Assembly: GCA_028714635.1 (NCBI GenBank)
Contig: JAQTLZ010000003.1
Coordinates: 21,237 to 85,236, forward strand
Reading direction: 5' to 3'
DNA length: 64,000 nucleotides
Source: Minisyncoccota bacterium
Lineage (GTDB): Bacteria; Patescibacteriota; Minisyncoccia; Phycocordibacterales; JAQTLZ01
The notes below the pieces were generated by a model. The model was not told where the DNA came from and did not search any database. It worked only from the letters and a program-made list of their open reading frames with translations. Numbering within the stretch: position 1 is the stretch's first letter; the number at the start of each line of letters is the position of its first letter. The translations under genes were made by a program, and so were the position numbers. This document shows positions 423 to 16,998 of this stretch, piece after piece.

Positions 423-537
423 GTAGCAAATGTATTCTTCTAAAAATGTTGTAAGGCGACCTTCTCTATCGCTTGTTTGCCGAAACACTTAAAGTGCATC
501 TGCTACCAAAACTTATGAGAAAACTCTTACAATGGGT

Positions 538-545: not shown

Positions 546-554
546 CCTTTTGCG

Positions 555-594
555 GAAAAAAGCAAGCCCAGGCACCTAATTTAGGTGCCTGGGC
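555..594 (-). terminator. Intrinsic terminator for the GT8/giant-gene transcript
   Basis: Perfect 11-bp GC-rich stem GCCCAGGCACC-TAATTTA-GGTGCCTGGGC at 566..594, followed on the minus strand by UUGCUUUUUUCC. Confidence 0.7.
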
Positions 595-605
595 AAGTCT
601 CGAGC

Positions 606-634
606 GGAAAACATACTATATATGTATGTTTTCC
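606..634. other. Second perfect 11-bp hairpin (GGAAAACATAC-TATATAT-GTATGTTTTCC) overlapping the last codons and stop of GT8 paralog 1
   Basis: Perfect inverted repeat seen directly in the sequence. It sits in tandem with the terminator hairpin. Confidence 0.5.
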
Positions 635-1521: not shown

Positions 1522-1547
1522 AGAGATTAATGGTGCCTTTGTTAAAA

Positions 1548-2369: not shown

Positions 2370-2408
2370 ACCGCTATATTTTCAGAAAACGGGAAATTGC
2401 GCAAGAAA

Positions 2409-5400
2409 CTATGGAGTGGCAGGCGCGTCAGACGGGGGTGGAGTTGAGTCTGAAGGAGGAGGTGTCTCTTCTTGCGGAGGAGGCGGAGTATCTTCTGGCG
2501 AGACTTCTGGTGCGGGAGTTTCGGTGACCTCTCCCGATTCATCTGGAGTTGGAGTCACTTCGGGAGATTCAGCTGGTGATTCTGCTGGAGTCGGAGTGGG
2601 AGTTGTCTCTTCCTCGCCTCCGCTTACCTCTGGAGAAGGTGTTGGTGTCGGAGTTCCTGATGAATCACCGCCTCCGGAAACTTCTGGAGTGGGTGTTGCC
2701 TGCCCAGTTCCCGCCCCGTCGTCCGACAGGGGTGTTGAACTAGGAATCGGTGTTGCATCTACCGTAGGAGTTGGAGTTGCTGAAGATACATTATCCGCAC
2801 AATCACCATCCTCGCTTCTCAACACTCCATTTTCGGTAAAGACACAAACAGGATTTCCGGTCTTTCTGTCGTAGATGACCACTCCAGTTTTGGAAACATC
2901 GGCAGAATTTTTGATAGTAAGATTATCAACGACAGCATTTTTCGCTTTCAAATCAATTGTTTCTACACTCTGGAAGATCCCGGCGATAGCAGTGAGTCTC
3001 TCGACCGCAAGATTTTTCACGTAGGAAATCATGTCGGTCATAACGATACCGAGAGATTCAAACGAGCCTCGGACAGAATCTGACACTTGTGAAAGAGCGC
3101 TCGAAGCAACAGATGCCGTGATTGATGAAGAAGAAACCGCTCCTTGCTTATTCTCGACGAAAACAAGAACGGTGTTGTCGGAAGAATCATAACTTCCAGA
3201 AAATGCTTCGAGTGCTAGACCAACAGAGTCTTCATTTGATGACGCCTTCTTCCCAACGCCCGCTACAGATGAAAGAGAAATCCTATCTCCAATACTAATC
3301 GCGCCTCCTTCAAGGTTTACTTTCACAGGCACGCGACCAGAGAGAGCGATCGGCACTTTCCTGTCATTTGGGAAACGATTGTCGCCAAAACCTCCAAGTT
3401 CAACTCCGGGCTTAGTAGAGACAATTCCAAGGAGCGGAGCATTCTCCGATCGTCTCGCCGTTTTTACAAAGACAGGATTGTCTAGGTCAAGAGAAACAAT
3501 TTCTGCAGCAGAAAGTTCGTCATCTTCAGTTGGATACCTTTCTGCAAGGTCGGTGGAAGTGATTGAGGTAGAGTTTGCATAAATAGTTCCGGCAGTTGTA
3601 GCGGCTGAACAATCTCCATTGTCATCTACACAAAGCCAGCCGTTTGAAACCTGGACATTTGCTTGATTGGTGCCGTCACCGACAGTAAGAGCTTGCGGAG
3701 GAGTAGAAGTTCCAATACCAACAAAAGAAGTACTGGCTCCAATACCTCCAAGAATAATCGAGTTGTCTTGATCTGCAAGCGCGCCGTTACCCAAAACAAC
3801 TGAATTGCTTACCCCACTACCCACAAGGGCAGCGTAGCCGATGATCACGTTAGTATTTCCACTCACTGTCCTTCCCGCACAAGTTCCGAGGATGATGTTA
3901 CTATTTCCGCTCACCGCATCAGCGCCTGCCTGGAACCCACCAATGTAGTTATAGTTTCCGGACACGCCACAGAGGCCTGCGCAAGTTCCAAGCACCACGT
4001 TGTCGGTCCCATCTCCCGCTCCGGTGATGTCATTGCCCCACGCACAGACACCTCCGATAAAATTACAAAAGCCGACCACTCCACAATATCCCGCCTGTGT
4101 TCCCAAAACAACGTTATTCTGCCCAATTCCATTTCCCGCGTTATCATTTCCCCATGCAGCGGTTCCCCCTATGAAGTTGCAGCTTCCCTGAATTCCACAA
4201 TAACCGACACTATCTCCAAGAAGAACATTTTGAACACCTGAAACACCAAACGCTCCAGTATATCTACCGATTACTGTATTATCATTTCCTACTATCCCGC
4301 AATACCCCGCGCAGGTTCCAAACACTACGTTATTAGAGCCGACTCCCGTTCCCTCCGTATCATTCCCCCACGCGCAGGTACCCCCGATGAAGTTGTTACA
4401 GGCACCACTTGCAAGACCGCAAAGACCTGCGCAGTAACCGAGAATAGTGTTGCACGAACCGGTGCGGCCATTTTGCCAATTTCCTCCGGCATATTCACCT
4501 GCGATGAAGTTATCGCTTCCGTCTACTCCGTCAGTACCTGCTCCAGCAAAAGTTCCGATAATGGCATTAGCATTTCCAGATACCCCATAGCGACCAGCAA
4601 AAGTTCCAAGCGCAATGTTGTTGTTACCAGTGCCTCCTCCTGTATCTTGCCCCCACGCACAGACACCTCCGATAAAGTTATTCGTACCACACACTCCATA
4701 AAGGCCAGCGCGAGTACCGAGAATAGTATTGCACGAACCGGTGAGAGAATAGTATGCGGCACAGACTCCGAGGACGGCGTTGGAAGAACCCGTGACACCA
4801 TTATAGCCGGCCTGGGAACCAATAATAGTATTTTCTTGTCCTGAAACTCCAAGGAGACCGACTTGAGAACCAAGAAGAGTGTTGCAAGCACCGGAGACTC
4901 CTTGAGCCCCTGCATTCGATCCAATCAGAATGTTATCATCGGCCGAAATTCCATACTGCCCAGCGAAAGATCCGAGAATAATAGCCCTGTTACTAACTCT
5001 GCCACTGGTCCAACTTCCTCCAGCATTCTGGCCTGCAATGAAGTTCGCGTCGCCGCAGACTCCTCCAAATCCGGCGGCGGAACCCGCAATGAAGTTGTCA
5101 TTACCCTGCAAAGAAATGAGTCCGGCGGTATAACCGATGACTGTATTTCTATCACCACACGCGCCACCATAAGCAGCATGGAAACCGAGAATGGCATTTT
5201 TGTCCCCTTCAATACCGCAGAAGCCAGCGCTGGTTCCGAGTACCACATTATCCGTTCCATTACTTCCACTCTGCCAATCGCCTCCGGCATAAGAACCGAT
5301 GAGGGTGTTATCCGAACCACACAGTCCCTTGAATCCGGCTCGGTAACCGATAAGAGTGGCGTAGGTACTGTTGAGACCATTTGTCCAATTAGCTCCAGCC

Positions 5401-8400
5401 TCTGTACCGGCAATGAAGGAATTATCTGTACACACGCCATTATTGCCGGCATTCGTTCCAAGAATCGTATTATCGGTATGTCCTGCAGTAAAGTTTTGAA
5501 AATTTGAAAGGGCATTTGCTCCTATAACAGTGTTGTAAGAACCGCCCAGTCCTCCAAGTCCAGCTTGATAGCCGATGACAGTATTACCTGTGTTGCAAAT
5601 ACCCGCATAAGCTGCTTTGTACCCGATGGCGGTGTTGTAATTGCCATCACCTCCAGTAGCCGAAGCTCCCCATGCAAGATTTCCGAGGGCAAGGTTTTCT
5701 ATTCCGCAGATTCCATTCTGTCCAGCTTGATGTCCGATGGCAGTATTAAACGAACCACAGAAAGTTGACCAATTTGATCCGGCATCTTGACCAATGAATG
5801 TGTTGCCGGGACCGCAGACCCCACAGAAACCTGCGTACGAACCAATGAGAATGTTGCCATCTTGCCCCGCGCAAATTCCACAGAAGCCAGCTTGATAGCC
5901 GATGATAGTGTTGCATGCTCCGGTGCGACTACTTGTCCAATCTGCGCCAGCTTGAAATCCGCCGATAAAGTTGTAAGAACCGCATACGCCACAGAGGCCT
6001 GCGTTCGCACCCAAGAGCACGTTTTCGTCTCCGTAGACGCCACAGTAGCCGGCGCACATCCCCGCAATGAAGTTGTTGCTTCCGACGTTTCCACAATAGC
6101 CCGCTTGGTAGCCGAGGATAGTATTTTTATCTCCTGTGGTTCGTCCGCTCTGCCAATCAGCCGCCGCTTGGTACCCCATGATCATATTGTTGCTTGCGGG
6201 AACTCCAGCAAGGCCAGCGCCATCTCCAAGGATTACATTTCCGTTAGCACTTACAAAGTTCCCGCTAACATCCACCCCGTCCACCAAAAATGTTCCGCTG
6301 ACATTAACATCGCCCGCGACATCAAGGGCGTAACCGGGAGTAGTGGTACCGATGCCGATGTTTCCGTTATTTGCTATGTAAAATTTCGTCGTCGTTGAGA
6401 CGCCATCAGCAGTGACGAAGTTTATCGCTCCGCCATTATCAGCTTCAAAATTGAGATCGCCCGCCGATGTGATGCCGACCCCCGCGCCTCCAGCCGCCGT
6501 ACTAAAGAAAGAGTCGTCTGGGAAAATAAGTTTGTTTCCGGTGCCGGAAATTTTAATATTGCCATTTACTTCCAATGGATAGCTCGGATTGGTGAGACCG
6601 ATACCGACATTGACAGCATCTGCGCCCGTTCCACCCAAGACGATGCTGCACGACGAAGAAACGATGGCGTTGTGACCAATCGCTGTTGCATTGGTCAATG
6701 CACCCGAAGCGACATCCGCTCCGGAACCCAAGGCGAGGTTATTGTCGCCAGTAGTATTCGTCGCCCCAGCTTTATATCCAAGAAAAGTATTATTGCCGCT
6801 CCCACTCGTTGTGAGATACCCAGAGCAGGTGCCGAGGAAAATGTTTTCATTCCCTGAAGGACCAGACCAGCCAGCACAGGTGCCGATCAGAATATTGTCG
6901 ACTCCGGAGCTTCCACAGAAGCCAGCTTGGGTGCCCGCGATGAAGTTGCTGCTACCAGCAATTCCGCAGAAGCCAGCGCAGTATCCGAGAACAGTGTTGT
7001 ATTGACCACCTCTTCCAGACTCCCAATTTCCTCCGGCAGAAGTACCACCAATGAAATTGTTTGAACCGCAGACTCCGCAAAAACCGGCGCAGTAACCAAT
7101 GATTGAGTTATCATCCCCCGTAACTCCGTAATAACTGGCGTTACCACCCATAAGAGCATTGTAATTTCCAGTAATTCCGCAGTAACCGGCACTGTAACCA
7201 AGAAGCGTGTTGTTGATTCCCGTTCGCCCACTCTGCCAGTTGCCTCCGGCAAGCGTACCGATAAGAGTGTTGTCATTGCCGCAGACTCCGCAGAAACCAG
7301 CGCAGTGGCCGATGATAGTGGAATAAGCTCCGTTAAATCCATCCGTCCAATTAGCTCCAGCCTCAGTGCCGGCAATGAAGTTGTTGTATCCATCGATACC
7401 GCAATAGCCAGCGCAGGTGCCAATAATAGTATTGTCTCCGCCTGTCATGCCGCTCTGCCAGTTTGCTCCGGCAGATGAGCCGATAACGGTTGTGTTCCAG
7501 CCGCAGAGGCCTTTATAGCCAGCACAATAGCCAAGAATGGTATTCTGACCTCCCGTAAAACCGCTCTGCCAGTTTGCTCCGGCATAGGAGCCGATAACGG
7601 TTGTGTTCCAGCCGCAGAGGCCGCAATAGCCAGCGCAGATACCAATAATAGTATTCTCACTTCCTGTAAAACCGCTCTGCCAATTCCCTCCTGCACAGGA
7701 GCCGATAACGGTTGTGTTCCAGCCGCAGAGGCCTTTATAGCCAGCACAATAGCCGAGAATGGTATTCTGACTTCCTGTAAAACCGCTCTGCCAGTTTGCT
7801 CCGGCATAGGTGCCGCCGATCAAGTTATTGCTCCCATTGATTCCGCAATAGCCAGCGCAGGTGCCGAGTACCACGTTGTCGGTCCCAGTCGTTCCTGAAA
7901 TATCGTTCCCCCAAGCATTGTTACCAATAATTGAGTTACTACCTCCTTGCATCCCACAGTACCCAGCGCAATGCCCAAGGAGAACATTGTAAGAACTGGC
8001 TCTTCCACTTTGCCAGCAGGCTCCCGCATCGGTGCCGATAATGACTTGGTCGCTGCCACAGAATCCACGAAGGCCTGCACGCCTTCCGATTAACACCCCA
8101 TCTGAACCTCCAAATCCAGACTGCCAATTTGAACCAGCTTCTTTACCAATGATGGTGTTACCATATCCAACAACTCCACAATAACCAGCACAACTGCCGA
8201 GAATAATGTTGTCGGTACTAGTGAAGCCTGACTGCCAATTTCCTCCGGCATATGTACCGCCAATGAAGTTATAGGAACCAGCCACTCCGCAATAGCCCGC
8301 ATCAAGACCAAGGATGGTGTTCGAGTTACCACTAATCCCACAAGTGCCAGCGTTGACACCTATAATAATGTTGCAGACCCCGCCCATTCCACTCTGCCAA

Positions 8401-11400
8401 TTTCCTCCGGCATTCGTGCCAATAAGTGTATTATCCGAACCGCAAACTCCGCAGTAGCCGGCACAAGAACCAATGATAGAATTGTTACTTCCTGATACTC
8501 CACAGTAGCCCGCACAGGAACCGATAAGTGAGTTTGAACTTCCCGAAACTCCCCGAAAACCAGCTTGATTTCCAAGGAGAAGATTGTTAGAACCGGTAAA
8601 TCCTGAAGTCCAATTTGCTCCGGTGTTCGTACCAAGAAGCGTGTTGCCACTTCCACACACACCGCAATAGCCAGCGCCACAACCACCGATAAAGTTATTA
8701 TTTCCAGAGATTCCGCAGAAGCCAGCGCAAGTGCCAAGAATTATGTTGTCAGTACCGGTTCGCCCACTCACCCAGTTCGCCCCAGCTTGGTTACCGATAA
8801 GTGTATTCACATTTCCACAAACTCCGCAGAGACCAGCATATGAACCGAGAATGACGTTGCCGGATGCCGAGATACCGCAGAAGCCTGCTTGATAACCGAG
8901 GATGGTGTTGCATGCGCCTGTGCGTCCGCTCTGCCAACAAGCACCGGTTTGTACGCCGGCAATGAAGTTACTAGGGCCAAAGATTCCGCAATAACCGGCA
9001 CAGGTGCCAAGTACTATGTTTCCATTTCCAGTGCTTGCAGTTGTCCTTTGATCCCCCCACGCACTGTCACCCACAACAAAGTTGCTCGTCCCACAAATAC
9101 CACAGTAGCCGGCACGATAACCGAAAATAGTGTTGCACGAACCGGAATTCGCACCGTTCCAATTACCACCGGTCTCATAGCCACCCAAGAGGTTGTTCGA
9201 ACCGCACACACCGTTGTAGCCGGCGTGATATCCGAGGAGAACATTATTGTTTGCTCCTACAAATCCTCCGCCAAAATTCACACCATTCACAAAATAGCCA
9301 CCTGAGACATTCACATCTCCTACCACATCAAGATCGTAACTTGGAGTAGTGGTGCCGATACCAACCTTTCCGTTATTCAAAATCGTAACCGGAGTGAGAC
9401 CGTTTGTCGCAAATGTAATCTTGCCGCTACCGCTGAAATCATCATCTGCAGCAAAGGAGAGATCGCCAGCCGCTGTCATACCGCTTCCTCCACCAACAGC
9501 AGTACCGATGAAAGTACCGTCTGGGAAATAAAGACCGTTGCTTCCGCCTTCAATTTTTATATTTCCATTTACGTCGAGGGCATGATCCGGAGTAGATGTG
9601 CCGATACCAACAAAAGTACAAGCACCGCCCAAAACTATAGCGTTGTCCTTTCCTACGACAGCGTTATAACCGATTGCCGCGGAATGAATAAGACCATCGA
9701 CTGCAACGTCTGCTCCATCGCCTAAAAGAAGAAGGCTCGAACCGCAGACATTGCTTATGCCCGCAGAAACTCCGACGAATGTGTTATTCCCACCAGTTGT
9801 ATTAGCATTGCCAGCATTCAGCCCGATGAAAACATTACTACTTCCCGAAGTATCGCCATTGCCTGCTACAGAACCAAGAAAGACGTTATTCGTTCCAGAA
9901 GTTCCCCCCGCTCCAGCATTTACTCCTGCCATGAAGTTGCCGGAACCGGAGATACCGTTCATTCCTGCACCTGTTCCAAGAATAATGTTTTGAGTTCCCT
10001 CTCTACCTGATTGCCAATTCGCTGCGACACACGAGCCGATGATGATATTGCAAGAACCGCAAACTCCGCAAAATCCTGCACAAGTGCCGAGGATAATATT
10101 ATCGCTCGCAAAAATTCCGCAGTAGCCGGCACAATGTCCAATGATAGTATTGAAATCGCCGCTATACGTGCTCTGCCAATTTCCTGCAACACAGGTGCCG
10201 GCAATAAAGTTATCGTCTCCACAGATTCCGCAATAGCCGGCGCAGTGGCCGAGTATGACGTTGCAATAACCTGAAATTCCGCAATAACCGGCACAAGCGC
10301 CGCCGATGAAGTTAAAATCTCCCGACACACCATAGTAAGCAGCGTAATTTCCGAGAATACTATTCCCATTACCACAAAGTCCGCAGGCTCCCGCAGAAGG
10401 ACCAATGATAGTGTTGTTTCCTCCCATCCTCCCGCCTACCCAGTCCCAGCCGGCAAAAAACCCGAGAAGCGTATTGTCATTCCCGCAGACTCCATGCTCT
10501 CCAGCACCGGCACCAATAATGTCATTAGCAACTCCAGAAACCCCGCACGCTCCGGCCGAAGCTCCAATAATGGTGTTGAAGTAACCAGTCCTTCCGCCCG
10601 ACCAATCATAGCCAGCACAAACGCCTGCGATGAAGTTGCAGGAACCAACTATTCCTTCATAGCCGGCGCAGGTGCCGAGGATAACGTTATTATTTCCAGC
10701 AGAACCACCGTTCCAACTAGCACCAGCATTAAAGCCGATGGCTGTGTTGTAATCTGCACCTGTATAAAAACCACAGAAAGCGGCGCACGTTCCGAGAGCT
10801 ATGTTGTTATTGCCACAAAATCCGCCACCCCAACAAGCACCAGCGGAAGTACCGGCAACGAAGTTATTATTAGCACAAGTACCTTTGTAGCCAGCGCAGG
10901 TGCCGAGAAAAGTATTGTTAGCACCACCATAACCGCCCTGCCAGCAAGCACCAGCCGAATAACCGATCAGCGTGTTATAGCATGCTCCATTATAGAGACC
11001 ATTAAACCCGGCGCTGTCACCAAGGATAATGTTACTAGAACCACAAAATCCACCTGTCCAATTTCTAGCCGCACACGAGCCACCAATAAAGTTGTCTGAA
11101 CCGCACACCCCGCCCGCGCCCGCATGATCGCCAATGACAGAGTTACTGCTTCCGTAGAGACCGTTAAAGCCAGCAAAATTTCCGAGAATAACATTGCTGC
11201 CTCCCGGGAGTCCCGCCTGCCAATTACCTGCGGCGCAGGTACCGCCTATGTAGTTGCCACTGCCACCGACACCAGCCGCACCAGCGTAAGCACCGAGAAT
11301 AGTGTTCGTGGTACCATTATTTCCACTATTCCAAACTCCTCCCGCTCCCACGCCTCCGATAAAGTTTGAGCTTCCAAAAACTCCGGACGCTCCAGCACTT

Positions 11401-14400
11401 GTTCCAATAACGACATTTGAACTTGTGGTAATCCCGCAAAGACCAGCATTTGTTCCAAAAATAACATTATTTGAACCAGCCACTCCGCAATACCCCGCGC
11501 AGGTTCCCAAGACCACGTTGTCGGTTCCGACTCCTGCTCCAGTTGTATCATTTTTCCAAGCACAGCTTCCACCGATGAAGTTATTACTCCCACAAATCCC
11601 GCAGAGACCGGCATTTGTCCCGATAACAGTGTTATTAGTACCGGCATAAAGAGAGCAAGAACCTCCCCATGAGTAATCTCCTAAAATCGTGTTAGAGGAA
11701 CCCGCCACCCCACAAAATCCTGCGTGATTCCCGATGACAGTATTCGTACTTCCAGTAAGACCTGCGGTATCACCACCCCACGCGCTCGTCCCGCCGATGA
11801 AGTTGTTGTCAGCTCCGCTTGCGAGACCAGAGTAACCAGCGCAAGAACCGAGAATGGTGTTACTTTGACCTGCATATGTTGAACCCCAATTTGCTCCGGC
11901 GCATGCGCCGATGATAGTGTTGTACCAACTTCCCTGTTTTCCTCCCGTTCCTGTTGCTCTACCCAGACCAGAGTTCGCCGCTTGATAGCCGATAACGGTA
12001 TTGTATTGACCATACGTATCAGTAGTATCAGCACCCCATGCTTCTACCCCGGCGATAAAGTTGTTTTGAACAGCAGTGTTCAATCCGCAAAAACCCGCTT
12101 TCGTCCCAAGCACGGTGTTGTCATTAGCATTCAAACCATAGAAAGCAGCTTGATAGCCGAGAATAGTATTTCTTTGACCATTGATATTGCCACCAGCAAC
12201 AGCTTCCGAGCCGAGAATGGTGTTGTCGGTTCCTCCGCCTTGAGTGGAAGAGGCGACTTGATAGCCGATAAAGGTGTTGCGACTTCCGCCAAACCCGCAC
12301 GAACCGGATTGTGTGCCTAAGAAAATATTGTCGGAACCACTGACGCCGCAATATCCCGCTTGGTAGCCAATAATGGAATTTTGGTTTCCTGCAATTCCGG
12401 AATAGCCAGCACCGGCACCAAGCACAACATTGCATCCTCCAGTGAGTCCGATGACATCGTTCCCCCACGCACTTGAACCAGCGATAAAGTTTTGACTCCC
12501 GGCGATACCGCAGAGACCTGCCGAGTAGCCAAGAACAACGTTTTGATCCCCGCTCTGACCAGATTCATCATCCCCCCAAGCACCCGGACCACCGATAAAA
12601 TTAAAATCTCCCGCTACGCCGCAGAGACCAGCGTTCACGCCAATCACAGTGTTGCAACTTCCCGCTATTCCGCAAAGTCCAGCTTGTGTTCCAAGCACCA
12701 CGTTGTCATCTCCCGTTCCCGCGCCTGTCGTATCATTCCCCCATGCATTATCCCCGATGATGGTATTTTGATTTCCCCCAATTCCACCATAACCAGCGCA
12801 GGTTCCCAAAATGAGATTGTCATTACCAGAAGTTCCAAATCGCCAGTTCGCTCCGGCACAACTACCAATGAGAGTGTTATCAGAACCACAGACTCCGCCA
12901 TAACCAGCGCGGCGGCCAATGAGCGTAGTGTAATTTCCGATACGGCTCGATCCCCAGTTCCCTCCCGCGTCAGGACCGAGAAGCGAGTTATTGTTTCCGT
13001 AGACCCCGGCATAACCAGCATTGTAACCAGCAACAAAGTTATTATTTCCCGTGATGCCGTTATAACCAGCAGAATCCCCCAAGACAATGTTGCTTTGGCC
13101 ATTCGTACCAGTCGAATCTGCTCCCCACGCGTTATAACCGGCGATAAAGTTTTTATCTCCGGTGATACCGCAATATCCGGCGGCCGAACCAAGCACGATG
13201 TTATCCGTACCAGTTGCGGTTCCGCTTTCATCATCACCCCACGCGCACGCTCCACCAATAAAGTTACAGCTTCCCGCAACTCCATAATACCCAGCACAAG
13301 TTCCAATAATCACATTCGATCCTCCTTCAGCAATTTGTCCGGCGTTGTAACCAGCGTGGTCGCCGATGATCGTAGAAGATGCGGCACTCGAAAAATATCC
13401 GGCGTATGGACCGAAGATGGAATTGCCACTGCCAGTCGTTGATGCGGCGGCATAATATCCGATCGCAGAATTGTAAGAACCGGTCGTCGTTGCTCCCACG
13501 AAAGTGCCGAGAAGGAAGTTGTTGTCTCCAGAGTTGCCAAAACCAGCGTGATCTCCGAGAATAATCGTGCTTGAACCCGTGTTGTTATATCCGGCGCAAG
13601 AACCACCAATAAAGTTGTTGGAACCGGTGTTACTTAGGCCCGCGCAGAAACCAATGATGGAGTTGCAAGATCCGGTGTTTTGAGCACCTGCTGAAACACC
13701 GAGAAAAGAGTTATGGTCGCCGGTGTTGTCACTGCCAGCATACGTTCCGAGAGCTACGTTATAGTCACCTACATTATTAAAACCGGCGCCGTTACCCATA
13801 AAGTTGTTTATGTCGCCGCTATTGTACATACCAGCTTGGTCACCAAGAAAAACATTACCCAAACCAGTATTGTGCTGACCAGCACAACCGCCAACAAAAG
13901 TATTATAAGAACCCGTGTTAAATTCCCCCGCATGCCAACCTCCAATAAAGTTTTCGGATCCAGTTGTCGAAGCGGCGGCATAATATCCGAGAGCGACATT
14001 TCGAGAACCGGTCGTCGTTGCTCCCGCGAAAGTGCCGAGAAGGAGATTGTCAGAGCCGGTAACGGAGCGGGAGCCGGCACACTGACCTGCGATAAAATTA
14101 TAATTTCCAGAAACACCCGCGGCGCCAGCGCAAACACCGAGAGCGATATTGCCTGTTCCTGATCCTGGAGAGGTAAAGAGTATTGTGCCACCAATACCGT
14201 ACCCCCCGCTTATGTTCGCGTTCCCGACAACATCAAGAGCTTGTGACGGGTTCATAAGCCCAATACCTACTCGCGCTAGTGAAGTGTCCACATAAAGCTG
14301 ATCGGTGTTGACCGCAAAATCTCCCGTGGTGCAAAGACCAATGTTCAAATTCTGCCCCGCCACCGGTGTGAGTGTCAGTGCCCCAGTTCCTGTCGTGATT

Positions 14401-16979
14401 GAACCGGAGGTTGAAAAATTAATTGAAGTTGAATCGATAAGTACCGAACCAGTGCCAACTTTAAGCGCGCCTTGGACCCAAAGATTGTTGGCAATGGTTG
14501 AAGTGCCGGTACCATTTACATTCAAAAGTCCCGCAAGAGTTGAACTTGCGGTAGCGCATGTGCCGACAAAATTTCCCGCGGTCAAAGTCCCAGTAAATGT
14601 TTTCGCGCCGTTGATCGTCTGCGCACCTTCGGTCATTACAAAATTCGCATCTGCTCCCGCGTCTGGAATAGTGTAAATATGAGCTGCGCCTTGTGCAGCA
14701 TTCGTGATTAATGTTTGATAGTCGCCTGAATTTGCAGTTGGGCCAAATTGCAGAACTCCAGACAAAGCGGATGAGGGATATAAACTTAATACTCCTTTAT
14801 TTCCAGTTGATGTTCCCACATTGAGATATGTCTCTACAGTTCCTGAAGAGATGGTCAACAGTTTTCCACTGCTTGGAGAAAGTGTGATGAGACTTCCGCT
14901 ACTTGGCACAATCGAATTCGCCTTGATACCGTTTGAACCGAAATCTTGCGCCTGCGAAGTCGCGCCGACAACCGCGCCGTTTGCAGTCAGATATGAACCG
15001 GCGGGTTGTTTGTTGTTAAAGGTATTCCAGTCGGTTGAGGAAAGTGTTCCTGTCGCGGAAGTTCCAGCGAGTCCGAGGGTCAAGGCCTGACCTGAAATAG
15101 TGAGACCATTTATGCTGTTGGTAAGGGTAACGTCGCCGGTATTAGTGCCGGAGAGATTTGAGGCCGACAAAGTTCCTGAGAACAATCCGTTGCCAATAAC
15201 GCTCAAAGCTTGTCCAGGAGTGGTTGTGCCGATGCCGACGTTGACCGCATTTCCTCCCGTGCCTCCGAGCACAAGAGAATTCGAAGCTCCGACAATTGCA
15301 TTGGCGCCGATTGCAGTGGCATTAGTGAGAGCAGAAGATGCTACGTCGGCATTGTATCCAATGAGAGTAGTGGAGCTACCAGTTATATTGGTAGCTCCAA
15401 CGTTGCGTCCAAGAGCAGTATTCCGCGAGCCAGTGGTGTTGTTGAAAAGTGCAGACTCTCCGTCGGCAGTATTGTTGGAACCCGTAGTGTTGCTGTAGAG
15501 GGATCCAAACCCGCTCGCGGAATTTTGTACACCAGTAGTGTTGCTGTAGAGTGCAGAGTATCCGTTCGCGGTGTTGTTGATTCCTGTGGTGTTACTCAAG
15601 AGTGCATTGTTTCCAGTGGCAACGTTGTAACTTCCTGTGGTGTTGCTAAAGAGCGCACCATACCCGTCAGCGGTATTACTGCCACCTGTGGTGTTATTGT
15701 AGAGTGCGCTGTCTCCATTTGCGGTATTTAGGGTCCCTGTTGAATTTAAGGAGAGTGCATAAAATCCGCTTGCGGTATTGCCATACCCGGTGGTATCGTT
15801 CCGGAGTGCGTAGTATCCGTTCGCAGTATTCTCGCTACCACTGGTGTTATTAAAGAGTGCATTGTATCCAGTCGCGCTGTTGTAGCTGCCTGTAGTGTTG
15901 CTGGAGAGAGCTTGGTATCCTAGAGCAGTATTGTAATTCCCCGTAATACTTGTATTCCCCGCCCCCACACCAAGCAAGGTATTGCCTGTTGCAGTCAAAA
16001 CATCGAGGACAGTATTTCCAGCAATTTTATACACTCCACTCACATTTGCGTTGCCAACAACATCAAGCATTTGCGAAGCCGTGGTGGTACCGATGCCGAC
16101 TTTGCCAGCAGAGAAGAAAAGAGTTGAGGTGCCCGACACTGCAGTGCCGGTCGCGCCATAAAAAGCTGCTTGTCCGGTTAATCCGGAATTCACTGTCCCA
16201 CTCCCGCCCGCCGTAATGCCAAGCGTAGAAGTCGCAACCCAAGCAGGCACTCCTGAAACCGAAGAAAGGACGTACCCTTCAGTTCCGATGTTTCGTTTTG
16301 CGAGAGAACTAGTCGTGTTTGCATAGAGAATATCGCCAACAGCATACGTGGTAGTACCAGTACCTCCGTACGCCACGCCCAAAGTACTTCCGTGCCATGT
16401 TCCAGAAACGACTGTGCCGAGCGATGAATAGGTCGCCGAAAGATTTGGAAAAGTTGAAGTTGCAGAAGTCGAAGTCGCCGTAAAATATTCTCCAAGAATT
16501 TGTCCGACGACAGTAAATTTCGCGAACGGAGTTGAAGTTCCAATTCCGTAATTCAAAGTTGATGGATCGATGTAAATATGTTCGACGGTACAATTCGAAG
16601 TCCCCGGCGCGCATCCTGGATCGAGCGTTTCTCCCGGAGCATACGGAGTAATCGGATACGAAGCGTACGCGGGAGTTGCAGTCCAAGAAAAAATCGAGGA
16701 CGCCATTGTTTCCAGTATCGAAGAAATTTGTATCGAGAAAGGCTGGAGCGTTTCTGAAATTTTTCCAGAAAGTGGGAACGCGTTGAACGCGGAAGTTCTG
16801 GAATCCGTGAACTCCCGAATCGCAAGATTTTTAATATCGAGACTGAAGGGAAAGCTCGATTTTTTTTGAAGAGGGGTGCTGTTTTCCGAGAAAAAAGGAA
16901 GCCGGTCCAAGACAGCTTTTGCAATCAAAATGACCGCAATTACGGAAGAACTAACCTTCGATAAAACTCGGGGCTTCAT
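2409..16979 (-). CDS. Giant secreted/surface repeat protein (4,856 aa) with a signal anchor, four Gly/Cys-rich beta-helix-like repeat modules capped by tail-fibre-like motifs, and a Pro/Thr-rich C-terminal tail
   Basis: Single uninterrupted ORF with an N-terminal hydrophobic segment (VIAVILIAKAV). It contains hundreds of ~14-aa repeats (NTxxGxxAGxxxTGxxN and GYCGVxGxxNxxIG). The cap motif '...DVASxALTNATAIGxNAIV...SxVLGG...GIGTxTP..ALxVxGN' recurs four times. The C-terminal tail reads TPTPTPSPEVSGG...PPPSDAPATP. Confidence 0.9.
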   Translation of the reverse strand: MKPRVLSKVSSSVIAVILIAKAVLDRLPFFSENSTPLQKKSSFPFSLDIKNLAIREFTDSRTSAFNAFPLSGKISETLQPFSIQISSILETMASSIFSWTATPAYASYPITPYAPGETLDPGCAPGTSNCTVEHIYIDPSTLNYGIGTSTPFAKFTVVGQILGEYFTATSTSATSTFPNLSATYSSLGTVVSGTWHGSTLGVAYGGTGTTTYAVGDILYANTTSSLAKRNIGTEGYVLSSVSGVPAWVATSTLGITAGGSGTVNSGLTGQAAFYGATGTAVSGTSTLFFSAGKVGIGTTTASQMLDVVGNANVSGVYKIAGNTVLDVLTATGNTLLGVGAGNTSITGNYNTALGYQALSSNTTGSYNSATGYNALFNNTSGSENTANGYYALRNDTTGYGNTASGFYALSLNSTGTLNTANGDSALYNNTTGGSNTADGYGALFSNTTGSYNVATGNNALLSNTTGINNTANGYSALYSNTTGVQNSASGFGSLYSNTTGSNNTADGESALFNNTTGSRNTALGRNVGATNITGSSTTLIGYNADVASSALTNATAIGANAIVGASNSLVLGGTGGNAVNVGIGTTTPGQALSVIGNGLFSGTLSASNLSGTNTGDVTLTNSINGLTISGQALTLGLAGTSATGTLSSTDWNTFNNKQPAGSYLTANGAVVGATSQAQDFGSNGIKANSIVPSSGSLITLSPSSGKLLTISSGTVETYLNVGTSTGNKGVLSLYPSSALSGVLQFGPTANSGDYQTLITNAAQGAAHIYTIPDAGADANFVMTEGAQTINGAKTFTGTLTAGNFVGTCATASSTLAGLLNVNGTGTSTIANNLWVQGALKVGTGSVLIDSTSINFSTSGSITTGTGALTLTPVAGQNLNIGLCTTGDFAVNTDQLYVDTSLARVGIGLMNPSQALDVVGNANISGGYGIGGTILFTSPGSGTGNIALGVCAGAAGVSGNYNFIAGQCAGSRSVTGSDNLLLGTFAGATTTGSRNVALGYYAAASTTGSENFIGGWHAGEFNTGSYNTFVGGCAGQHNTGLGNVFLGDQAGMYNSGDINNFMGNGAGFNNVGDYNVALGTYAGSDNTGDHNSFLGVSAGAQNTGSCNSIIGFCAGLSNTGSNNFIGGSCAGYNNTGSSTIILGDHAGFGNSGDNNFLLGTFVGATTTGSYNSAIGYYAAASTTGSGNSIFGPYAGYFSSAASSTIIGDHAGYNAGQIAEGGSNVIIGTCAGYYGVAGSCNFIGGACAWGDDESGTATGTDNIVLGSAAGYCGITGDKNFIAGYNAWGADSTGTNGQSNIVLGDSAGYNGITGNNNFVAGYNAGYAGVYGNNNSLLGPDAGGNWGSSRIGNYTTLIGRRAGYGGVCGSDNTLIGSCAGANWRFGTSGNDNLILGTCAGYGGIGGNQNTIIGDNAWGNDTTGAGTGDDNVVLGTQAGLCGIAGSCNTVIGVNAGLCGVAGDFNFIGGPGAWGDDESGQSGDQNVVLGYSAGLCGIAGSQNFIAGSSAWGNDVIGLTGGCNVVLGAGAGYSGIAGNQNSIIGYQAGYCGVSGSDNIFLGTQSGSCGFGGSRNTFIGYQVASSTQGGGTDNTILGSEAVAGGNINGQRNTILGYQAAFYGLNANDNTVLGTKAGFCGLNTAVQNNFIAGVEAWGADTTDTYGQYNTVIGYQAANSGLGRATGTGGKQGSWYNTIIGACAGANWGSTYAGQSNTILGSCAGYSGLASGADNNFIGGTSAWGGDTAGLTGSTNTVIGNHAGFCGVAGSSNTILGDYSWGGSCSLYAGTNNTVIGTNAGLCGICGSNNFIGGSCAWKNDTTGAGVGTDNVVLGTCAGYCGVAGSNNVIFGTNAGLCGITTSSNVVIGTSAGASGVFGSSNFIGGVGAGGVWNSGNNGTTNTILGAYAGAAGVGGSGNYIGGTCAAGNWQAGLPGGSNVILGNFAGFNGLYGSSNSVIGDHAGAGGVCGSDNFIGGSCAARNWTGGFCGSSNIILGDSAGFNGLYNGACYNTLIGYSAGACWQGGYGGANNTFLGTCAGYKGTCANNNFVAGTSAGACWGGGFCGNNNIALGTCAAFCGFYTGADYNTAIGFNAGASWNGGSAGNNNVILGTCAGYEGIVGSCNFIAGVCAGYDWSGGRTGYFNTIIGASAGACGVSGVANDIIGAGAGEHGVCGNDNTLLGFFAGWDWVGGRMGGNNTIIGPSAGACGLCGNGNSILGNYAAYYGVSGDFNFIGGACAGYCGISGYCNVILGHCAGYCGICGDDNFIAGTCVAGNWQSTYSGDFNTIIGHCAGYCGIFASDNIILGTCAGFCGVCGSCNIIIGSCVAANWQSGREGTQNIILGTGAGMNGISGSGNFMAGVNAGAGGTSGTNNVFLGSVAGNGDTSGSSNVFIGLNAGNANTTGGNNTFVGVSAGISNVCGSSLLLLGDGADVAVDGLIHSAAIGYNAVVGKDNAIVLGGACTFVGIGTSTPDHALDVNGNIKIEGGSNGLYFPDGTFIGTAVGGGSGMTAAGDLSFAADDDFSGSGKITFATNGLTPVTILNNGKVGIGTTTPSYDLDVVGDVNVSGGYFVNGVNFGGGFVGANNNVLLGYHAGYNGVCGSNNLLGGYETGGNWNGANSGSCNTIFGYRAGYCGICGTSNFVVGDSAWGDQRTTASTGNGNIVLGTCAGYCGIFGPSNFIAGVQTGACWQSGRTGACNTILGYQAGFCGISASGNVILGSYAGLCGVCGNVNTLIGNQAGANWVSGRTGTDNIILGTCAGFCGISGNNNFIGGCGAGYCGVCGSGNTLLGTNTGANWTSGFTGSNNLLLGNQAGFRGVSGSSNSLIGSCAGYCGVSGSNNSIIGSCAGYCGVCGSDNTLIGTNAGGNWQSGMGGVCNIIIGVNAGTCGISGNSNTILGLDAGYCGVAGSYNFIGGTYAGGNWQSGFTSTDNIILGSCAGYCGVVGYGNTIIGKEAGSNWQSGFGGSDGVLIGRRAGLRGFCGSDQVIIGTDAGACWQSGRASSYNVLLGHCAGYCGMQGGSNSIIGNNAWGNDISGTTGTDNVVLGTCAGYCGINGSNNLIGGTYAGANWQSGFTGSQNTILGYCAGYKGLCGWNTTVIGSCAGGNWQSGFTGSENTIIGICAGYCGLCGWNTTVIGSYAGANWQSGFTGGQNTILGYCAGYKGLCGWNTTVIGSSAGANWQSGMTGGDNTIIGTCAGYCGIDGYNNFIAGTEAGANWTDGFNGAYSTIIGHCAGFCGVCGNDNTLIGTLAGGNWQSGRTGINNTLLGYSAGYCGITGNYNALMGGNASYYGVTGDDNSIIGYCAGFCGVCGSNNFIGGTSAGGNWESGRGGQYNTVLGYCAGFCGIAGSSNFIAGTQAGFCGSSGVDNILIGTCAGWSGPSGNENIFLGTCSGYLTTSGSGNNTFLGYKAGATNTTGDNNLALGSGADVASGALTNATAIGHNAIVSSSCSIVLGGTGADAVNVGIGLTNPSYPLEVNGNIKISGTGNKLIFPDDSFFSTAAGGAGVGITSAGDLNFEADNGGAINFVTADGVSTTTKFYIANNGNIGIGTTTPGYALDVAGDVNVSGTFLVDGVDVSGNFVSANGNVILGDGAGLAGVPASNNMIMGYQAAADWQSGRTTGDKNTILGYQAGYCGNVGSNNFIAGMCAGYCGVYGDENVLLGANAGLCGVCGSYNFIGGFQAGADWTSSRTGACNTIIGYQAGFCGICAGQDGNILIGSYAGFCGVCGPGNTFIGQDAGSNWSTFCGSFNTAIGHQAGQNGICGIENLALGNLAWGASATGGDGNYNTAIGYKAAYAGICNTGNTVIGYQAGLGGLGGSYNTVIGANALSNFQNFTAGHTDNTILGTNAGNNGVCTDNSFIAGTEAGANWTNGLNSTYATLIGYRAGFKGLCGSDNTLIGSYAGGDWQSGSNGTDNVVLGTSAGFCGIEGDKNAILGFHAAYGGACGDRNTVIGYTAGLISLQGNDNFIAGSAAGFGGVCGDANFIAGQNAGGSWTSGRVSNRAIILGSFAGQYGISADDNILIGSNAGAQGVSGACNTLLGSQVGLLGVSGQENTIIGSQAGYNGVTGSSNAVLGVCAAYYSLTGSCNTILGTRAGLYGVCGTNNFIGGVCAWGQDTGGGTGNNNIALGTFAGRYGVSGNANAIIGTFAGAGTDGVDGSDNFIAGEYAGGNWQNGRTGSCNTILGYCAGLCGLASGACNNFIGGTCAWGNDTEGTGVGSNNVVFGTCAGYCGIVGNDNTVIGRYTGAFGVSGVQNVLLGDSVGYCGIQGSCNFIGGTAAWGNDNAGNGIGQNNVVLGTQAGYCGVVGFCNFIGGVCAWGNDITGAGDGTDNVVLGTCAGLCGVSGNYNYIGGFQAGADAVSGNSNIILGTCAGRTVSGNTNVIIGYAALVGSGVSNSVVLGNGALADQDNSIILGGIGASTSFVGIGTSTPPQALTVGDGTNQANVQVSNGWLCVDDNGDCSAATTAGTIYANSTSITSTDLAERYPTEDDELSAAEIVSLDLDNPVFVKTARRSENAPLLGIVSTKPGVELGGFGDNRFPNDRKVPIALSGRVPVKVNLEGGAISIGDRISLSSVAGVGKKASSNEDSVGLALEAFSGSYDSSDNTVLVFVENKQGAVSSSSITASVASSALSQVSDSVRGSFESLGIVMTDMISYVKNLAVERLTAIAGIFQSVETIDLKAKNAVVDNLTIKNSADVSKTGVVIYDRKTGNPVCVFTENGVLRSEDGDCADNVSSATPTPTVDATPIPSSTPLSDDGAGTGQATPTPEVSGGGDSSGTPTPTPSPEVSGGEEETTPTPTPAESPAESPEVTPTPDESGEVTETPAPEVSPEDTPPPPQEETPPPSDSTPPPSDAPATP
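7450..7810. repeat. About 3 tandem copies of a ~120-bp near-identical direct repeat inside the giant gene
   Basis: The unit CCGCTCTGCCAGTTTGCTCCGGCA...GTTGTGTTCCAGCCGCAGAGGCC... recurs at ~7450, ~7561 and ~7670. It encodes 40-aa repeats ...ILGYCAGYKGLCGWNTTVIGSxAGxNWQSGFTG... Confidence 0.8.
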
Positions 16980-16998
16980 TAATAGAGTATTATACAGG
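16980..16998 (-). promoter_or_regulatory. Promoter -10 box (TGTATAAT) 9 nt upstream of the giant-gene ATG; leaderless or very short leader
   Basis: Minus strand reads CCTGTATAATACTCTATTA-ATG, with a perfect TATAAT. No SD is present. Confidence 0.5.

What the first reader, a model, noticed from the sequence alone, without database searches (positions are those of the whole stretch)
2409..16979. 14.6-kb gene for a 4,856-aa modular surface protein
A single uninterrupted ORF fills about 23% of the window. The architecture is an N-terminal signal anchor, then four modules. Each module is a long array of ~14-residue Gly/Asn/Thr-rich repeats, and in the central modules these are Cys-rich (CAGYCGVxGSxN), suggesting a disulfide-stapled beta-helix or beta-solenoid. 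Each module ends in the same cap, ...DVASxALTNATAIGxNAIV..SxVLGG...GIGTTTP.ALDVxGN, which resembles the distal segments of phage tail-fibre / endosialidase-type proteins. Next comes a ~470-aa non-repetitive C-terminal region beginning TSTDLAERYPTEDDEL, and finally a Pro/Thr-rich tail. Proteins like this in reduced or episymbiotic bacteria are candidates for host attachment. The four-fold repetition of a whole fibre module within one polypeptide is unusual.
Basis: partly seen in the sequence, partly recalled or inferred. Interest (0 to 1): 0.8.

Follow-up and report, generated by a model that had tools for sequence, protein, structure and literature searches.

The report
Giant phage-fibre-like surface protein
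A real 4,856-residue gene in a tiny, probably symbiotic bacterium (Candidatus Paceibacterota) encodes a probably ~100-nm rod built from adhesin-like and phage-tail-fibre-like parts, ending in a self-removing folding domain like that of phage phi29, which makes it a good candidate for how such bacteria grip other cells.

Summary
The ORF is real: 2409..16979 (-), 4,856 aa, no stops. A sister species has an equally giant ortholog. The four-module architecture holds, with two corrections: the repeat period is 17 aa (plus 20-21-aa and 16-aa variants), not ~14, and the non-repetitive C-terminal region is ~300 aa plus a 116-aa Pro/Thr tail.

This C-terminal domain ends at least 579 large proteins, nearly all from Patescibacteria. 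The array and cap family is widespread (18,978 relatives, up to 7,448 aa). The CAGYCG(V/I) cysteine pattern was found only here and in the sister species.

Verdict: a secreted, probably trimeric surface fibre or adhesin, a new variant of a known kind. Trimerisation, cleavage, disulfides and host binding are inferred, not shown.

The parts
2409..16979 (-). Complete ORF, 4,856 aa plus stop
16989..16996 (-). TGTATAAT (extended -10-like) 10 nt upstream of the ATG. This is a leaderless-type start, as in many genes of this window.
   Evidence: Sequence. Only 4 of 50 ORFs have an SD motif, and several others have TATAAT 6-12 nt before the ATG. The consensus promoter scan did not call it because there is no -35.
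16914..16979 (-). aa 1-22: predicted Sec signal peptide or anchor (MKPRVLSK + VSSSVIAVILI + AKA)
   Evidence: It is the most hydrophobic 19-mer in the protein, with KD 1.92. The A-x-A motif was read from the sequence. No dedicated predictor was available.
16560..16913 (-). aa 23-140: unique N-terminal region, a candidate cell-proximal attachment part
   Evidence: No relative in any of the 80 related loci and no Pfam hit.
15984..16559 (-). aa 141-332: mosaic fibre modules, including the first GIGT..P motifs
   Evidence: Matches phrog_30390 and a tail-fibre phrog. The same modules occur internally in other Patescibacteria fibre proteins.
15360..15983 (-). Array 1, aa 333-540: ~12 Cys-free 17-aa coils (NTAxGxxALxxNTTGxx)
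   Evidence: phrog_23837/6002/4636 hits at E 6e-44 to 7e-24
15192..15359 (-). Cap 1, aa 541-596 (ADVASSALTNATAIG..NSLVLGG..VNVGIGTTTP..L.V)
14151..15191 (-). Connector 1, aa 597-943: non-repetitive fibre segment with a BppL_N-like 'QTINGAKTF' motif (aa 780-800)
   Evidence: (phrog_5906),
9720..14150 (-). Array 2, aa 944-2420: ~82 coils. There is a 16-aa sub-array at aa 978-1186, then Cys-rich 17/20-aa coils.
9561..9719 (-). Cap 2, aa 2421-2473
9246..9560 (-). Connector 2, aa 2474-2578: MAT-like segment ending in a GIGTTTP capping-loop motif
   Evidence: 60% identical to connector 3. The motif matches Bdellovibrio MAT structures (PMC10769870).
6741..9245 (-). Array 3, aa 2579-3413: ~46 coils, 6.5% Cys
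   Evidence: AlphaFold2 model of its last 13 coils
7400..7815 (-). Recent tandem duplication inside array 3 (111/222-nt units, 84-90% identical; 37-aa super-repeat)
6555..6740 (-). Cap 3, aa 3414-3475
   Evidence: Modelled at pLDDT >90 as a continuation of the solenoid. Alignment.
6240..6554 (-). Connector 3, aa 3476-3580
   Evidence: pLDDT ~50 in the monomer model, as expected if it only folds in an oligomer.
3801..6239 (-). Array 4, aa 3581-4393: ~45 coils, 4.7% Cys
3660..3800 (-). Cap 4 (degenerate), aa 4394-4440
3552..3659 (-). aa 4441-4476: predicted mature C-terminal tip (NGWLCVDDNGDC...YANSTSITST). The predicted cleavage site follows T4476.
3150..3551 (-). aa 4477-4610: phi29 gp12-type (Peptidase_G2-like) auto-chaperone core, starting with the invariant D-L-A-E
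2940..3149 (-). aa 4611-4680: predicted helical segment, low confidence
   Evidence: conserved only in L002 and L032
2760..2939 (-). aa 4681-4740: small terminal beta element with two Cys (LTIKNSADVSKTGVVIYDRKTGNPVCVF...GDC)
   Evidence: pLDDT ~90. Present near the C-terminus in 23 of 80 loci and after an S74 domain in P0059.
2412..2759 (-). aa 4741-4856: Pro/Thr/Glu-rich tail with no anchor motif
   Evidence: sequence
1548..2369 (-). GT8 glycosyltransferase, 39 nt downstream on the same strand
   Evidence: No terminator lies between it and the giant gene.
616..1551 (-). Second GT8 glycosyltransferase, overlapping the first by 4 nt
566..594 (-). Strong terminator-like hairpin (13-bp stem, T-run) that closes the putative giant-GT8-GT8 transcription unit

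Best explanation
The gene encodes a secreted, very long cell-surface fibre of a Candidatus Paceibacterota (Patescibacteria/CPR) bacterium.

Predicted structure:
- Each chain forms four single-chain beta-solenoid arrays, about 185 coils of 17-20 residues in total. By my estimate at ~0.48 nm per coil, that is roughly 90 nm.
- The fold is the one seen in trimeric-autotransporter head domains.
- Each array ends in a conserved YadA-head-like cap plus a 'GIGTTTP..L.V' capping-loop motif.
- The arrays are joined by short phage/MAT-type connectors.

Inferred from homology: the C-terminal domain is a phi29 gp12-type intramolecular chaperone. After Sec export it would trimerise, nucleate folding of the three chains from the C-terminus towards the N-terminus, and then cut itself off before Asp4477 (TSITST|DLAERY). 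That would release a 380-residue fragment made of the chaperone, a helix, a small beta element and the Pro/Thr tail.

Inferred by analogy with phage fibres, Bdellovibrio MAT fibres and trimeric autotransporters:
- The N-terminal end stays at the cell.
- The rod serves to contact or hold a host cell or a surface.
- The two co-transcribed GT8 glycosyltransferases may decorate it.
- The cysteine columns may rigidify the rod.
For: ORF and start:
- The ORF is intact.
- The start has the leaderless-type TATAAT context typical of this genome.
- The N-terminus is hydrophobic.

Arrays and cap:
- AlphaFold2 models array plus cap at pLDDT 90-97 and pTM 0.79, with one short strand per 17/20 residues.
- Homologues of array plus cap are named 'tail fiber domain-containing' or 'trimeric autotransporter adhesin'. 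They usually continue into Peptidase_S74, and the cap gives YadA_head hits.

C-terminal domain:
- Homologues reach the Pfam Peptidase_G2 threshold over the STDLAE region.
- The profile hits the phi29 gp12 C-terminal fragment 3GQH at E 2.2e-4, with the conserved D aligned to residue 1 of that cleaved fragment.
- D4477, A4479 and E4480 are invariant in all 63-64 homologues that cover those positions.
- PMC3357383 states that the gp12 C-terminal domain is an auto-chaperone cleaved off after folding.

Connectors: the GIGTTTP motif matches Bdellovibrio MAT fibre structures 8OND and 8OJN. PMC10769870 describes that motif as capping loops of trimeric beta-helices.

Context:
- The neighbours are housekeeping genes, not phage genes.
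- The C-terminal domain ends at least 579 large proteins, almost all from Patescibacteria.
- The sister-species ortholog has the same plan.
Against: - The protein itself gets no above-threshold Pfam or NCBIfam hit. Only XM1_gp53 scores exactly at its cut-off, and Peptidase_G2 is not reported for this sequence.
- The same fold occurs in non-cleaving phage capsid cement proteins, so cleavage is not guaranteed.
- From my memory of the gp12 literature, release of the gp12 chaperone was linked to ATP, which is not available outside a cell.
- Trimerisation was never modelled, because only monomer predictions were possible.
- No anchoring motif (LPXTG, lipobox or a long transmembrane segment) was found, so how or whether the fibre stays on the cell is open.
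- There is no expression, localisation or binding data.
- The GT8 genes neighbour the fibre gene only in the same organism and its sister species.
Confidence: 0.6

Rival explanations
1. The gene is a phage or prophage tail-fibre or tailspike gene, or a tailocin part, lying in the chromosome. It would serve a virus rather than the cell.
For: Many segments match phage families: phrog_23837/6002/4636 (virion structural and tail spike), a tail-fibre phrog, a BppL_N-like motif, and the gp12-type chaperone.
Against: - No phage structural, packaging or integrase genes lie within about 20 kb on either side. The neighbours are GT8, RRM, SBP_bac_5, RNase J, MFS and sugar-metabolism genes.
- The protein has an N-terminal secretion-type hydrophobic segment.
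- No tRNA genes were found in the window, so a tRNA-type integration site is absent.
- Composition differs from the flanks only as the Gly/Ala/Cys bias predicts.
- The same C-terminal domain ends large proteins in hundreds of Patescibacteria genomes.
- At 4,856 aa it would be far larger than typical fibre proteins.
Confidence: 0.05
2. The protein is a structural envelope or spacer element, or a matrix, mineral or ice-interacting beta-solenoid, rather than a specific adhesin. The Cys columns would bind metals or cross-link fibres into a sheath.
For: - There is no recognisable distal receptor-binding domain after the predicted cleavage. The tip would be only ~36 residues.
- The per-coil C7-x3-C11-x2-C14-x2-C17 pattern includes CxxC spacings.
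Against: - The closest folds and the named homologues are adhesins and fibres.
- His is rare (0.5%), and no metal-site motif was matched.
- The curli and ice-binding similarities reflect the generic solenoid fold, with low sequence identity (11-12%) against 25% for BpaC.
Confidence: 0.2
3. The C-terminal domain is retained, as the trimerising cement proteins of phage capsids are. It would act as a permanent trimerisation or tip knob, and with the terminal beta element and Pro/Thr tail it would form the functional distal or wall-embedded end.
For: - Pfam XM1_gp53 scores at its threshold for this sequence.
- The terminal beta element and tail are conserved in 23 of 80 loci, which is more than expected for a discarded pro-peptide.
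Against: - The best structural and sequence-profile match is the cleaved gp12 fragment, with the alignment beginning exactly at its first residue.
- D-x-A-E at that boundary is invariant in all 63-64 sequences covering it.
- In the sister species an S74 auto-protease sits upstream of this region, so there everything downstream is probably released.
Confidence: 0.15

Closest known systems
Bacteriophage phi29 gp12 pre-neck appendage (tailspike) C-terminal auto-chaperone, MEROPS/Pfam Peptidase_G2 (PDB 3GQH, 3SUC)
   Same: - The D-x-A-E motif sits at the position where the cleaved gp12 fragment begins.
- It sits at the C-terminus of a beta-helical fibre or spike.
   Different: - It is a cellular, secreted protein rather than a virion protein.
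- The sequence is too diverged to reach the Pfam threshold.
- It carries an extra helix, a small beta element and a 116-aa Pro/Thr tail after the core.
- The passenger is 4,476 aa of left-handed-roll-like arrays rather than one right-handed pectate-lyase-type helix.
- Cleavage has not been demonstrated.
Bdellovibrio bacteriovorus MAT (mosaic adhesive trimer) fibres, e.g. Bd2133, Bd3182 (PMC10769870; PDB 8OND, 8OJN)
   Same: - They are chromosomally encoded, secreted, phage-fibre-like chimeric proteins of a bacterium that lives on other bacteria.
- They repeat the 'GNVGIGTTxP..L.V' capping-loop motif (profile hit E 5.5e-9).
- They have a C-terminal auto-chaperone or variable tips.
- Modules swap between relatives.
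   Different: - MATs are about 1,000 aa, mostly intertwined triple beta-helix, and use S74 or other tips, not G2.
- They share a conserved ~130-aa N-terminal domain, which could not be compared here.
- They have no long 17-aa solenoid arrays and no Cys-rich coils.
- Their host cell is diderm.
Trimeric autotransporter adhesin YadA-like heads (BpaC, UspA1, CbpF, YadA; Pfam YadA_head)
   Same: - The solenoid is rich in Gly, Asn and Ala.
- YadA_head gives sub-threshold or threshold hits at the cap in homologues.
- They act as adhesins.
   Different: - There is no C-terminal beta-barrel anchor and no coiled-coil stalk or neck, and the organism is expected to lack an outer membrane.
- The coil period is 17-20 aa. 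From memory, the classical YadA period is 14.
- Assembly is predicted to depend on a cleavable chaperone rather than on a membrane anchor.
'Tail fiber domain-containing proteins' with Peptidase_S74 from Bacteroidota, Acidobacteriota and CPR
   Same: They have the same 17-aa NxFxGxxAGxxNTTGxx arrays and an almost identical cap, ADxxxxxLTNATAIGYxAxVxxSNSLVLGGTGxxxVNVGIGTTxPxxxLxV.
   Different: - Those listed by the word-index searches are 240-700 aa, each with one array, one cap, an S74 domain and sometimes a T9SS sorting domain.
- Here four such passengers are concatenated, S74 is replaced by a G2-like domain, and most coils carry the CAGYCG(V/I) cysteine pattern.

Membership tests
Peptidase_G2 (phi29 gp12-type IMC autoproteolytic domain, PF11962) | Pfam PF11962 match above the gathering threshold | tested here: not met
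   PF11962 was not reported for this protein even at E<=10. The homologues P0017 (27.3 bits) and P0087 (25.7 bits) pass the 25-bit cut-off over the equivalent region.
Peptidase_G2 (phi29 gp12-type IMC autoproteolytic domain, PF11962) | Fold of the gp12 C-terminal fragment | tested here: met
   [not shown]
Peptidase_G2 (phi29 gp12-type IMC autoproteolytic domain, PF11962) | Conserved Asp/Glu motif (D-x-A-E) at the cleavage boundary | tested here: met
   The family profile aligns 'DlAEnyp' to residues 1-8 (DFAEYFES) of the cleaved fragment 3GQH. D4477, A4479 and E4480 are invariant in all 63-64 sequences covering them.
Peptidase_G2 (phi29 gp12-type IMC autoproteolytic domain, PF11962) | Autocatalytic cleavage and chaperone-dependent trimer folding | not testable with these tools
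   This needs expression of the C-terminal fragment and of site mutants.
Peptidase_S74 (endosialidase-type intramolecular chaperone, PF13884) | PF13884 match and the SDxxxK catalytic motif | tested here: not met
   There is no Pfam hit and no SDxxxK anywhere in the protein. The sister ortholog L002 does have both: 44.1 bits and SDISYK.
Trimeric autotransporter adhesins (type Vc) | C-terminal YadA-type beta-barrel membrane anchor | tested here: not met
   No YadA_anchor or other barrel hit was found. The C-terminus is the G2-like domain plus a Pro/Thr tail.
Trimeric autotransporter adhesins (type Vc) | YadA-like head beta-roll | tested here: met
   [not shown]
Bdellovibrio MAT fibres | Repeated capping-loop motif on a trimeric beta-helix | tested here: inconclusive
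   The motif is present at least 9 times, and the profile hits 8OND and 8OJN through it. The connectors were modelled at low confidence as monomers, and no trimer was modelled.
Bdellovibrio MAT fibres | Conserved ~130-aa beta-rich N-terminal domain after the signal peptide | not tested
   No MAT N-terminal sequence was available in the tools. Residues 23-140 of this protein have no relative among the 80 loci.

The most novel reading that the evidence does not exclude
Proteins capped by the gp12-type auto-chaperone would be the general host-recognition fibre system of Patescibacteria, a monoderm counterpart of the Bdellovibrio MAT fibres built from phage-fibre parts, with S74 and G2 chaperones and passengers swapping even between sister species. 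In this lineage the adhesin-type beta-roll would additionally have evolved a per-coil C-x3-C-x2-C-x2-C lattice that staples a ~100-nm segmented rod through disulfides or bound metal. That design is not known for this fold.
Probability: 0.25. Interest if true: 0.75.

Novelty: new variant of a known kind. Interest (0 to 1): 0.55.

Why it matters
How ultrasmall Patescibacteria find and hold their hosts is largely unknown, and current work centres on type IV pili (e.g. PMC12206443).

This gene, and the at least 579 relatives that share its C-terminal domain, give a concrete and testable candidate class:
- long secreted fibres built from phage-fibre and adhesin modules;
- a predicted self-cleaving folding domain whose D-x-A-E site can be mutated;
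- passengers that differ between close relatives, as expected for host-range determinants.

The Cys-patterned solenoid is also a possible new way of stiffening a very long beta-roll.

If the fibre instead proves to be a generic envelope protein, the finding is just another large repetitive surface protein.

Tried and rejected
No result:
- Pfam and NCBIfam on the whole protein gave nothing above threshold.
- PDB sequence searches with array 1 and array 3 gave no hits.
- A phmmer search of the C-terminal domain alone against PDB gave only chance-level hits to herpesvirus processivity factors. The profile was needed.
- Exact-sequence look-ups of the giant protein and of RNase J found nothing on record. 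Only the GT8 look-up located the sister assembly.
- Model coordinates are not exposed to scripts, so Cys-Cys distances and disulfide geometry could not be measured.
- The library searches found no paper linking Peptidase_G2 to Patescibacteria. They found only a general note of large Cys-rich extracellular proteins in Peribacteria (PMC4736985).

Hypotheses rejected:
- Peptidase_S74 in this protein.
- A prophage origin, given the context.
- GT8 linkage as a conserved feature. It is seen only in the same organism and its sister species, although the operon structure is suggestive.
- Paralogues elsewhere in the window. There are none.

Caveats:
- The word-index homology searches returned only proteins of at most ~700 aa. 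The size distribution comes instead from the exhaustive search and from the loci.
- Neither the window protein nor its L002 ortholog appeared in those libraries, so 'lineage-specific' for the CAGYCG pattern means 'not seen among what could be searched'.
Full report
**Observation**

The window has one ORF at 2409..16979 on the minus strand: ATG start, 4,856 codons, no internal stop. The composition is extreme: Gly 20%, Ala 10%, Asn 9.7%, Thr 9.2%, Ser 9.1%, Cys 3.4%. G+C is ~50% inside the gene against 41-44% in the flanks, as that amino-acid bias predicts.

Shine-Dalgarno motifs are rare in this window (4 of 50 ORFs). Many genes have TATAAT 6-12 nt before the ATG. The giant gene has TGTATAAT 10 nt upstream, so the annotated ATG and the hydrophobic N-terminus are probably real.

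**Is the gene real?**

- A public assembly (GCA_028711105.1, contig JAQTSW010000073.1, 4,994 bp) is 100% identical to window 380..5373 and ends inside array 4. That confirms the 3' part, and it also shows that short-read assemblies break in these repeats.
- The DNA copies of the repeat are only 60-78% identical. The exception is a 111/222-nt tandem at 7400-7815 at 84-90% identity.
- A sister species (L002, 'Candidatus Paceibacterota bacterium STB_28') has an ortholog. Its C-terminal domain is 92% identical, its ORF is still open at the 5' end of the fetched locus (at least 3,749 aa), and it has 4.1% Cys and the same array, cap and connector plan.

I conclude that the giant ORF is genuine. Exact coil numbers still need long reads.

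**Anatomy**

Anchoring on the N-x-h-h-G start of each coil gives spacings of 17 aa (80 coils), 20-21 aa (about 33, with an inserted 'NWQSG' or 'AWGNDTTG' bulge) and 16 aa (17 coils, at aa 978-1186). The DNA periods of 51, 111 and 162 nt agree.

The arrays are at aa 333-540, 944-2420, 2579-3413 and 3581-4393, about 185 coils in all.

The 17-mer consensus is N-[TV]-[IV]-[LI]-G-x-[C/Q]-A-G-Y-C-G-[VI]-[S/C]-G-[SN]-x. Among 73 such coils, Cys sits at position 7 in 23, position 11 in 39, position 14 in 16 and position 17 in 9. Array 1 has no Cys, and arrays 2b, 3 and 4 have 4.7-6.5%.

Each array ends in a cap of the form ADVAS.ALTNATAIG.NAIV..SNS.VLGG....VGIGTTTP..L.V. The caps are 34-64% identical pairwise, and connectors 2 and 3 are 60% identical.

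After cap 4 come, in order:
- a 36-residue segment with two Cys;
- the domain beginning DLAERY at aa 4477;
- a predicted helical stretch;
- a small beta element with two Cys;
- a 116-residue Pro/Thr tail with no anchoring motif.

**What the arrays are**

Neither Pfam nor PDB sequence searches recognise them. PHROG families of virion structural and tail-spike proteins do (E down to 6e-44).

An exhaustive HMMER search with aa 2560-3580 found 18,978 relatives at E<=1e-3 and 346 at E<=1e-30. The best is only 38% identical, and lengths reach 7,448 aa.

Word-index searches returned proteins from Bacteroidota, Acidobacteriota and CPR. These are named 'tail fiber domain-containing protein' or 'trimeric autotransporter adhesin'. 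Many carry Peptidase_S74 directly after the same cap, and some carry a T9SS sorting domain. Their consensus is NxFxGxxAGxxNTTGxx repeats followed by ADxxxxxLTNATAIGYxAxVxxSNSLVLGGTGxxxVNVGIGTTxPxxxLxV.

With that alignment, AlphaFold2 modelled aa 3183-3580 at mean pLDDT 83 and pTM 0.79. The 13 coils plus cap score 90-97, with one three-residue strand per coil. The connector scores only ~50.

**The cysteine pattern**

- None of the 149 best representatives has a C[AG]G[YFLW]C[GD] motif, while this protein has 21. Only 4 of those representatives have at least 2.5% Cys.
- A search seeded with a Cys-rich stretch found other Cys-enriched arrays (4-6% Cys), but with Cys mainly at the 'xCAG' position and never CAGYCG[VI].
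- Among the 80 related loci, only the sister species shares the pattern.

Within what could be searched, the pattern is specific to this lineage.

**The C-terminal domain**

A search with aa 4440-4740 gave 92 homologues, mostly from Parcubacteria-type CPR. They follow very different passengers: DUF5011 Ig-like, phage collar, Gly-rich and bactofilin-like domains.

Four lines of evidence point to the phi29 gp12 type:
- Two homologues pass the Pfam Peptidase_G2 threshold exactly over the 'STDLAE.Y' region.
- The family profile hits the phi29 gp12 C-terminal fragment 3GQH (E 2.2e-4), with its conserved 'DlAEnyp' aligned to residues 1-8, DFAEYFES, of that post-cleavage fragment.
- D4477, A4479 and E4480 are invariant in every homologue that covers them (63-64 sequences).

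PMC3357383 states that the gp12 C-terminal domain is an auto-chaperone cleaved off after folding.

I therefore predict trimerisation-coupled cleavage between T4476 and D4477. This is inference from homology. The protein itself does not reach the Pfam threshold, and related cement proteins do not cleave.

There is no Peptidase_S74 domain and no SDxxxK motif here. The sister ortholog has a bona fide S74 domain (44 bits, SDISYK) inserted between its last cap and the same G2-like domain.

**Connectors**

The same profile also hits Bdellovibrio MAT fibre structures (8OND at E 5.5e-9, 8OJN and others) through the GNVGIGTTxP..L.V motif. PMC10769870 describes that motif as the capping loop of trimeric beta-helices in 'mosaic adhesive trimer' fibres, which decorate the predator and carry S74 or alternative tips.

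**Distribution and context**

The best 80 are nearly all Patescibacteria: Paceibacterota, Saccharibacteria, Doudnabacteria, Levyibacteriota, Peregrinibacteria and others. In each, the domain lies near the end of an ORF of 400 to more than 3,800 aa, and many ORFs are cut by the locus edge.

Residues 1-140 of this protein have no relative in those loci. Residues 141-332 and 780-945 recur at internal positions of other fibres. The terminal beta element occurs in 23 of 80 loci, and it also follows an S74 domain in P0059.

The neighbours are cellular genes:
- two GT8 glycosyltransferases and an RRM protein downstream;
- SBP_bac_5, RNase J, an MFS transporter, a CAP-domain protein and sugar-metabolism genes on the other side.

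There are no tRNA genes, no phage genes among the ORFs scanned (about 1-41 kb), and no paralogue elsewhere in the window.

The only terminator-like hairpin downstream lies after the second GT8 gene, at 566-594. This suggests a giant-GT8-GT8 transcription unit. The GT8 neighbourhood is shared only with the same organism and the sister species. In the sister species, an unknown gene and an IspD-like cytidylyltransferase are inserted in between.

**Mechanism proposed**

Shown by computation:
- an intact giant ORF;
- a secretion-type N-terminus;
- four predicted single-chain beta-roll arrays with conserved caps;
- a gp12-type C-terminal fold with an invariant D-x-A-E.

Inferred:
- Sec export;
- trimerisation nucleated by the C-terminal domain, with folding running from the C-terminus to the N-terminus;
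- self-cleavage before D4477;
- a segmented rod of roughly 90 nm or more (about 185 coils at 0.48 nm each, which is my estimate);
- the N-terminus proximal to the cell;
- a role in contacting a host cell or surface;
- possible glycosylation by the GT8 pair;
- Cys columns that rigidify the rod.

The Pro/Thr tail could act as a wall-spanning tether that lets the chaperone domains meet before release. That is pure speculation.

**Rivals**

- A phage or tailocin part: unlikely given the context.
- A non-specific envelope, matrix or metal-binding solenoid: not excluded.
- A retained, cement-like C-terminal knob: not excluded.

**Comparison and novelty**

The protein works like known trimeric fibres with intramolecular chaperones: the phi29 gp12 and K1F/T5 tail fibres, Bdellovibrio MATs, and the heads of trimeric autotransporters. 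It is not a member of the TAA family (no barrel anchor) or the S74 family (no domain, no motif). It meets the fold and motif criteria of Peptidase_G2 but not the Pfam score criterion.

Large Cys-rich extracellular proteins have been noted in CPR before (PMC4736985), but those belong to other families. In the paper library I found nothing that links the gp12-type domain to Patescibacteria.

I rate it a new variant of a known kind. The distinguishing features are four concatenated passengers, a G2-type rather than S74 chaperone in a cellular secreted protein, and a lineage-specific cysteine lattice. Interest is moderate. The giant size and the phage-like parts are not in themselves surprising, but the family offers a concrete and testable handle on host recognition in Patescibacteria.

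Noticed in passing
L002:9284-11248 (ortholog aa ~3050-3704): The sister-species ortholog carries two different fibre auto-chaperone modules in tandem. A true Peptidase_S74 domain (44 bits, SDISYK) is followed by the same G2-like C-terminal domain. The window protein lacks the S74 module, so chaperone modules are gained or lost between close relatives.
   Followed up: partly
window 2760-2939 (aa 4681-4740) and P0059: The small terminal element 'LTIKNSADVSKTG.VIYDR.TG.P.C...G.C' plus the Pro/Thr tail is a separate module. It occurs after the G2-like domain in 23 of 80 loci, and after a Peptidase_S74 domain in P0059. Its role is unknown.
   Followed up: partly
window 39606-39747 (-) and ORF 37652-39553 (-): An AdoCbl (B12) riboswitch (60 bits, above the gathering score) lies just upstream of a 633-aa ORF that has no Pfam hit.
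   Followed up: no
whole window, e.g. 16989-16996, upstream of 27918-28859, 41770-42396, 46567-48192, 53467-53973: Shine-Dalgarno motifs are almost absent (4 of 50 ORFs). Many genes have TATAAT 6-12 nt before the ATG, which suggests widespread leaderless or very short-leader mRNAs in this genome.
   Followed up: partly
window 566-2369 (-): Two GT8 glycosyltransferase genes follow the giant gene on the same strand, with a 39-nt gap and then a 4-nt overlap. The only strong terminator-like hairpin (13-bp stem) comes after them. In L002 an unknown gene and an IspD-like cytidylyltransferase are inserted between the giant gene and the GT8 pair.
   Followed up: partly
window 7400-7815: A near-identical 111/222-nt tandem (84-90% identity) encodes three to four 37-aa super-repeats (17 + 20 aa coils). 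This is evidence that the arrays grow by recent tandem duplication, and it is the stretch most at risk of mis-assembly.
   Followed up: partly
L012:11874-13325, L017:18718-20589, window 19271-21199: An RNase J gene lies within a few kb of the fibre gene in two other Patescibacteria loci as well as in the window. This may be positional conservation of the fibre locus.
   Followed up: no
P0475, P0442, P0428 (metagenomic homologues): Other members of the array family are independently Cys-enriched (4-6% Cys). Their Cys sits mainly at the 'xCAG' coil position, with occasional CC pairs, and never in the CAGYCG(V/I) pattern. Cys enrichment of this solenoid has therefore arisen more than once.
   Followed up: partly
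L030, L069, L079: Three of the 80 best loci with the G2-like C-terminal domain are labelled 'uncultured Gammaproteobacteria bacterium' MAGs. This could be mis-binning or transfer outside Patescibacteria.
   Followed up: no
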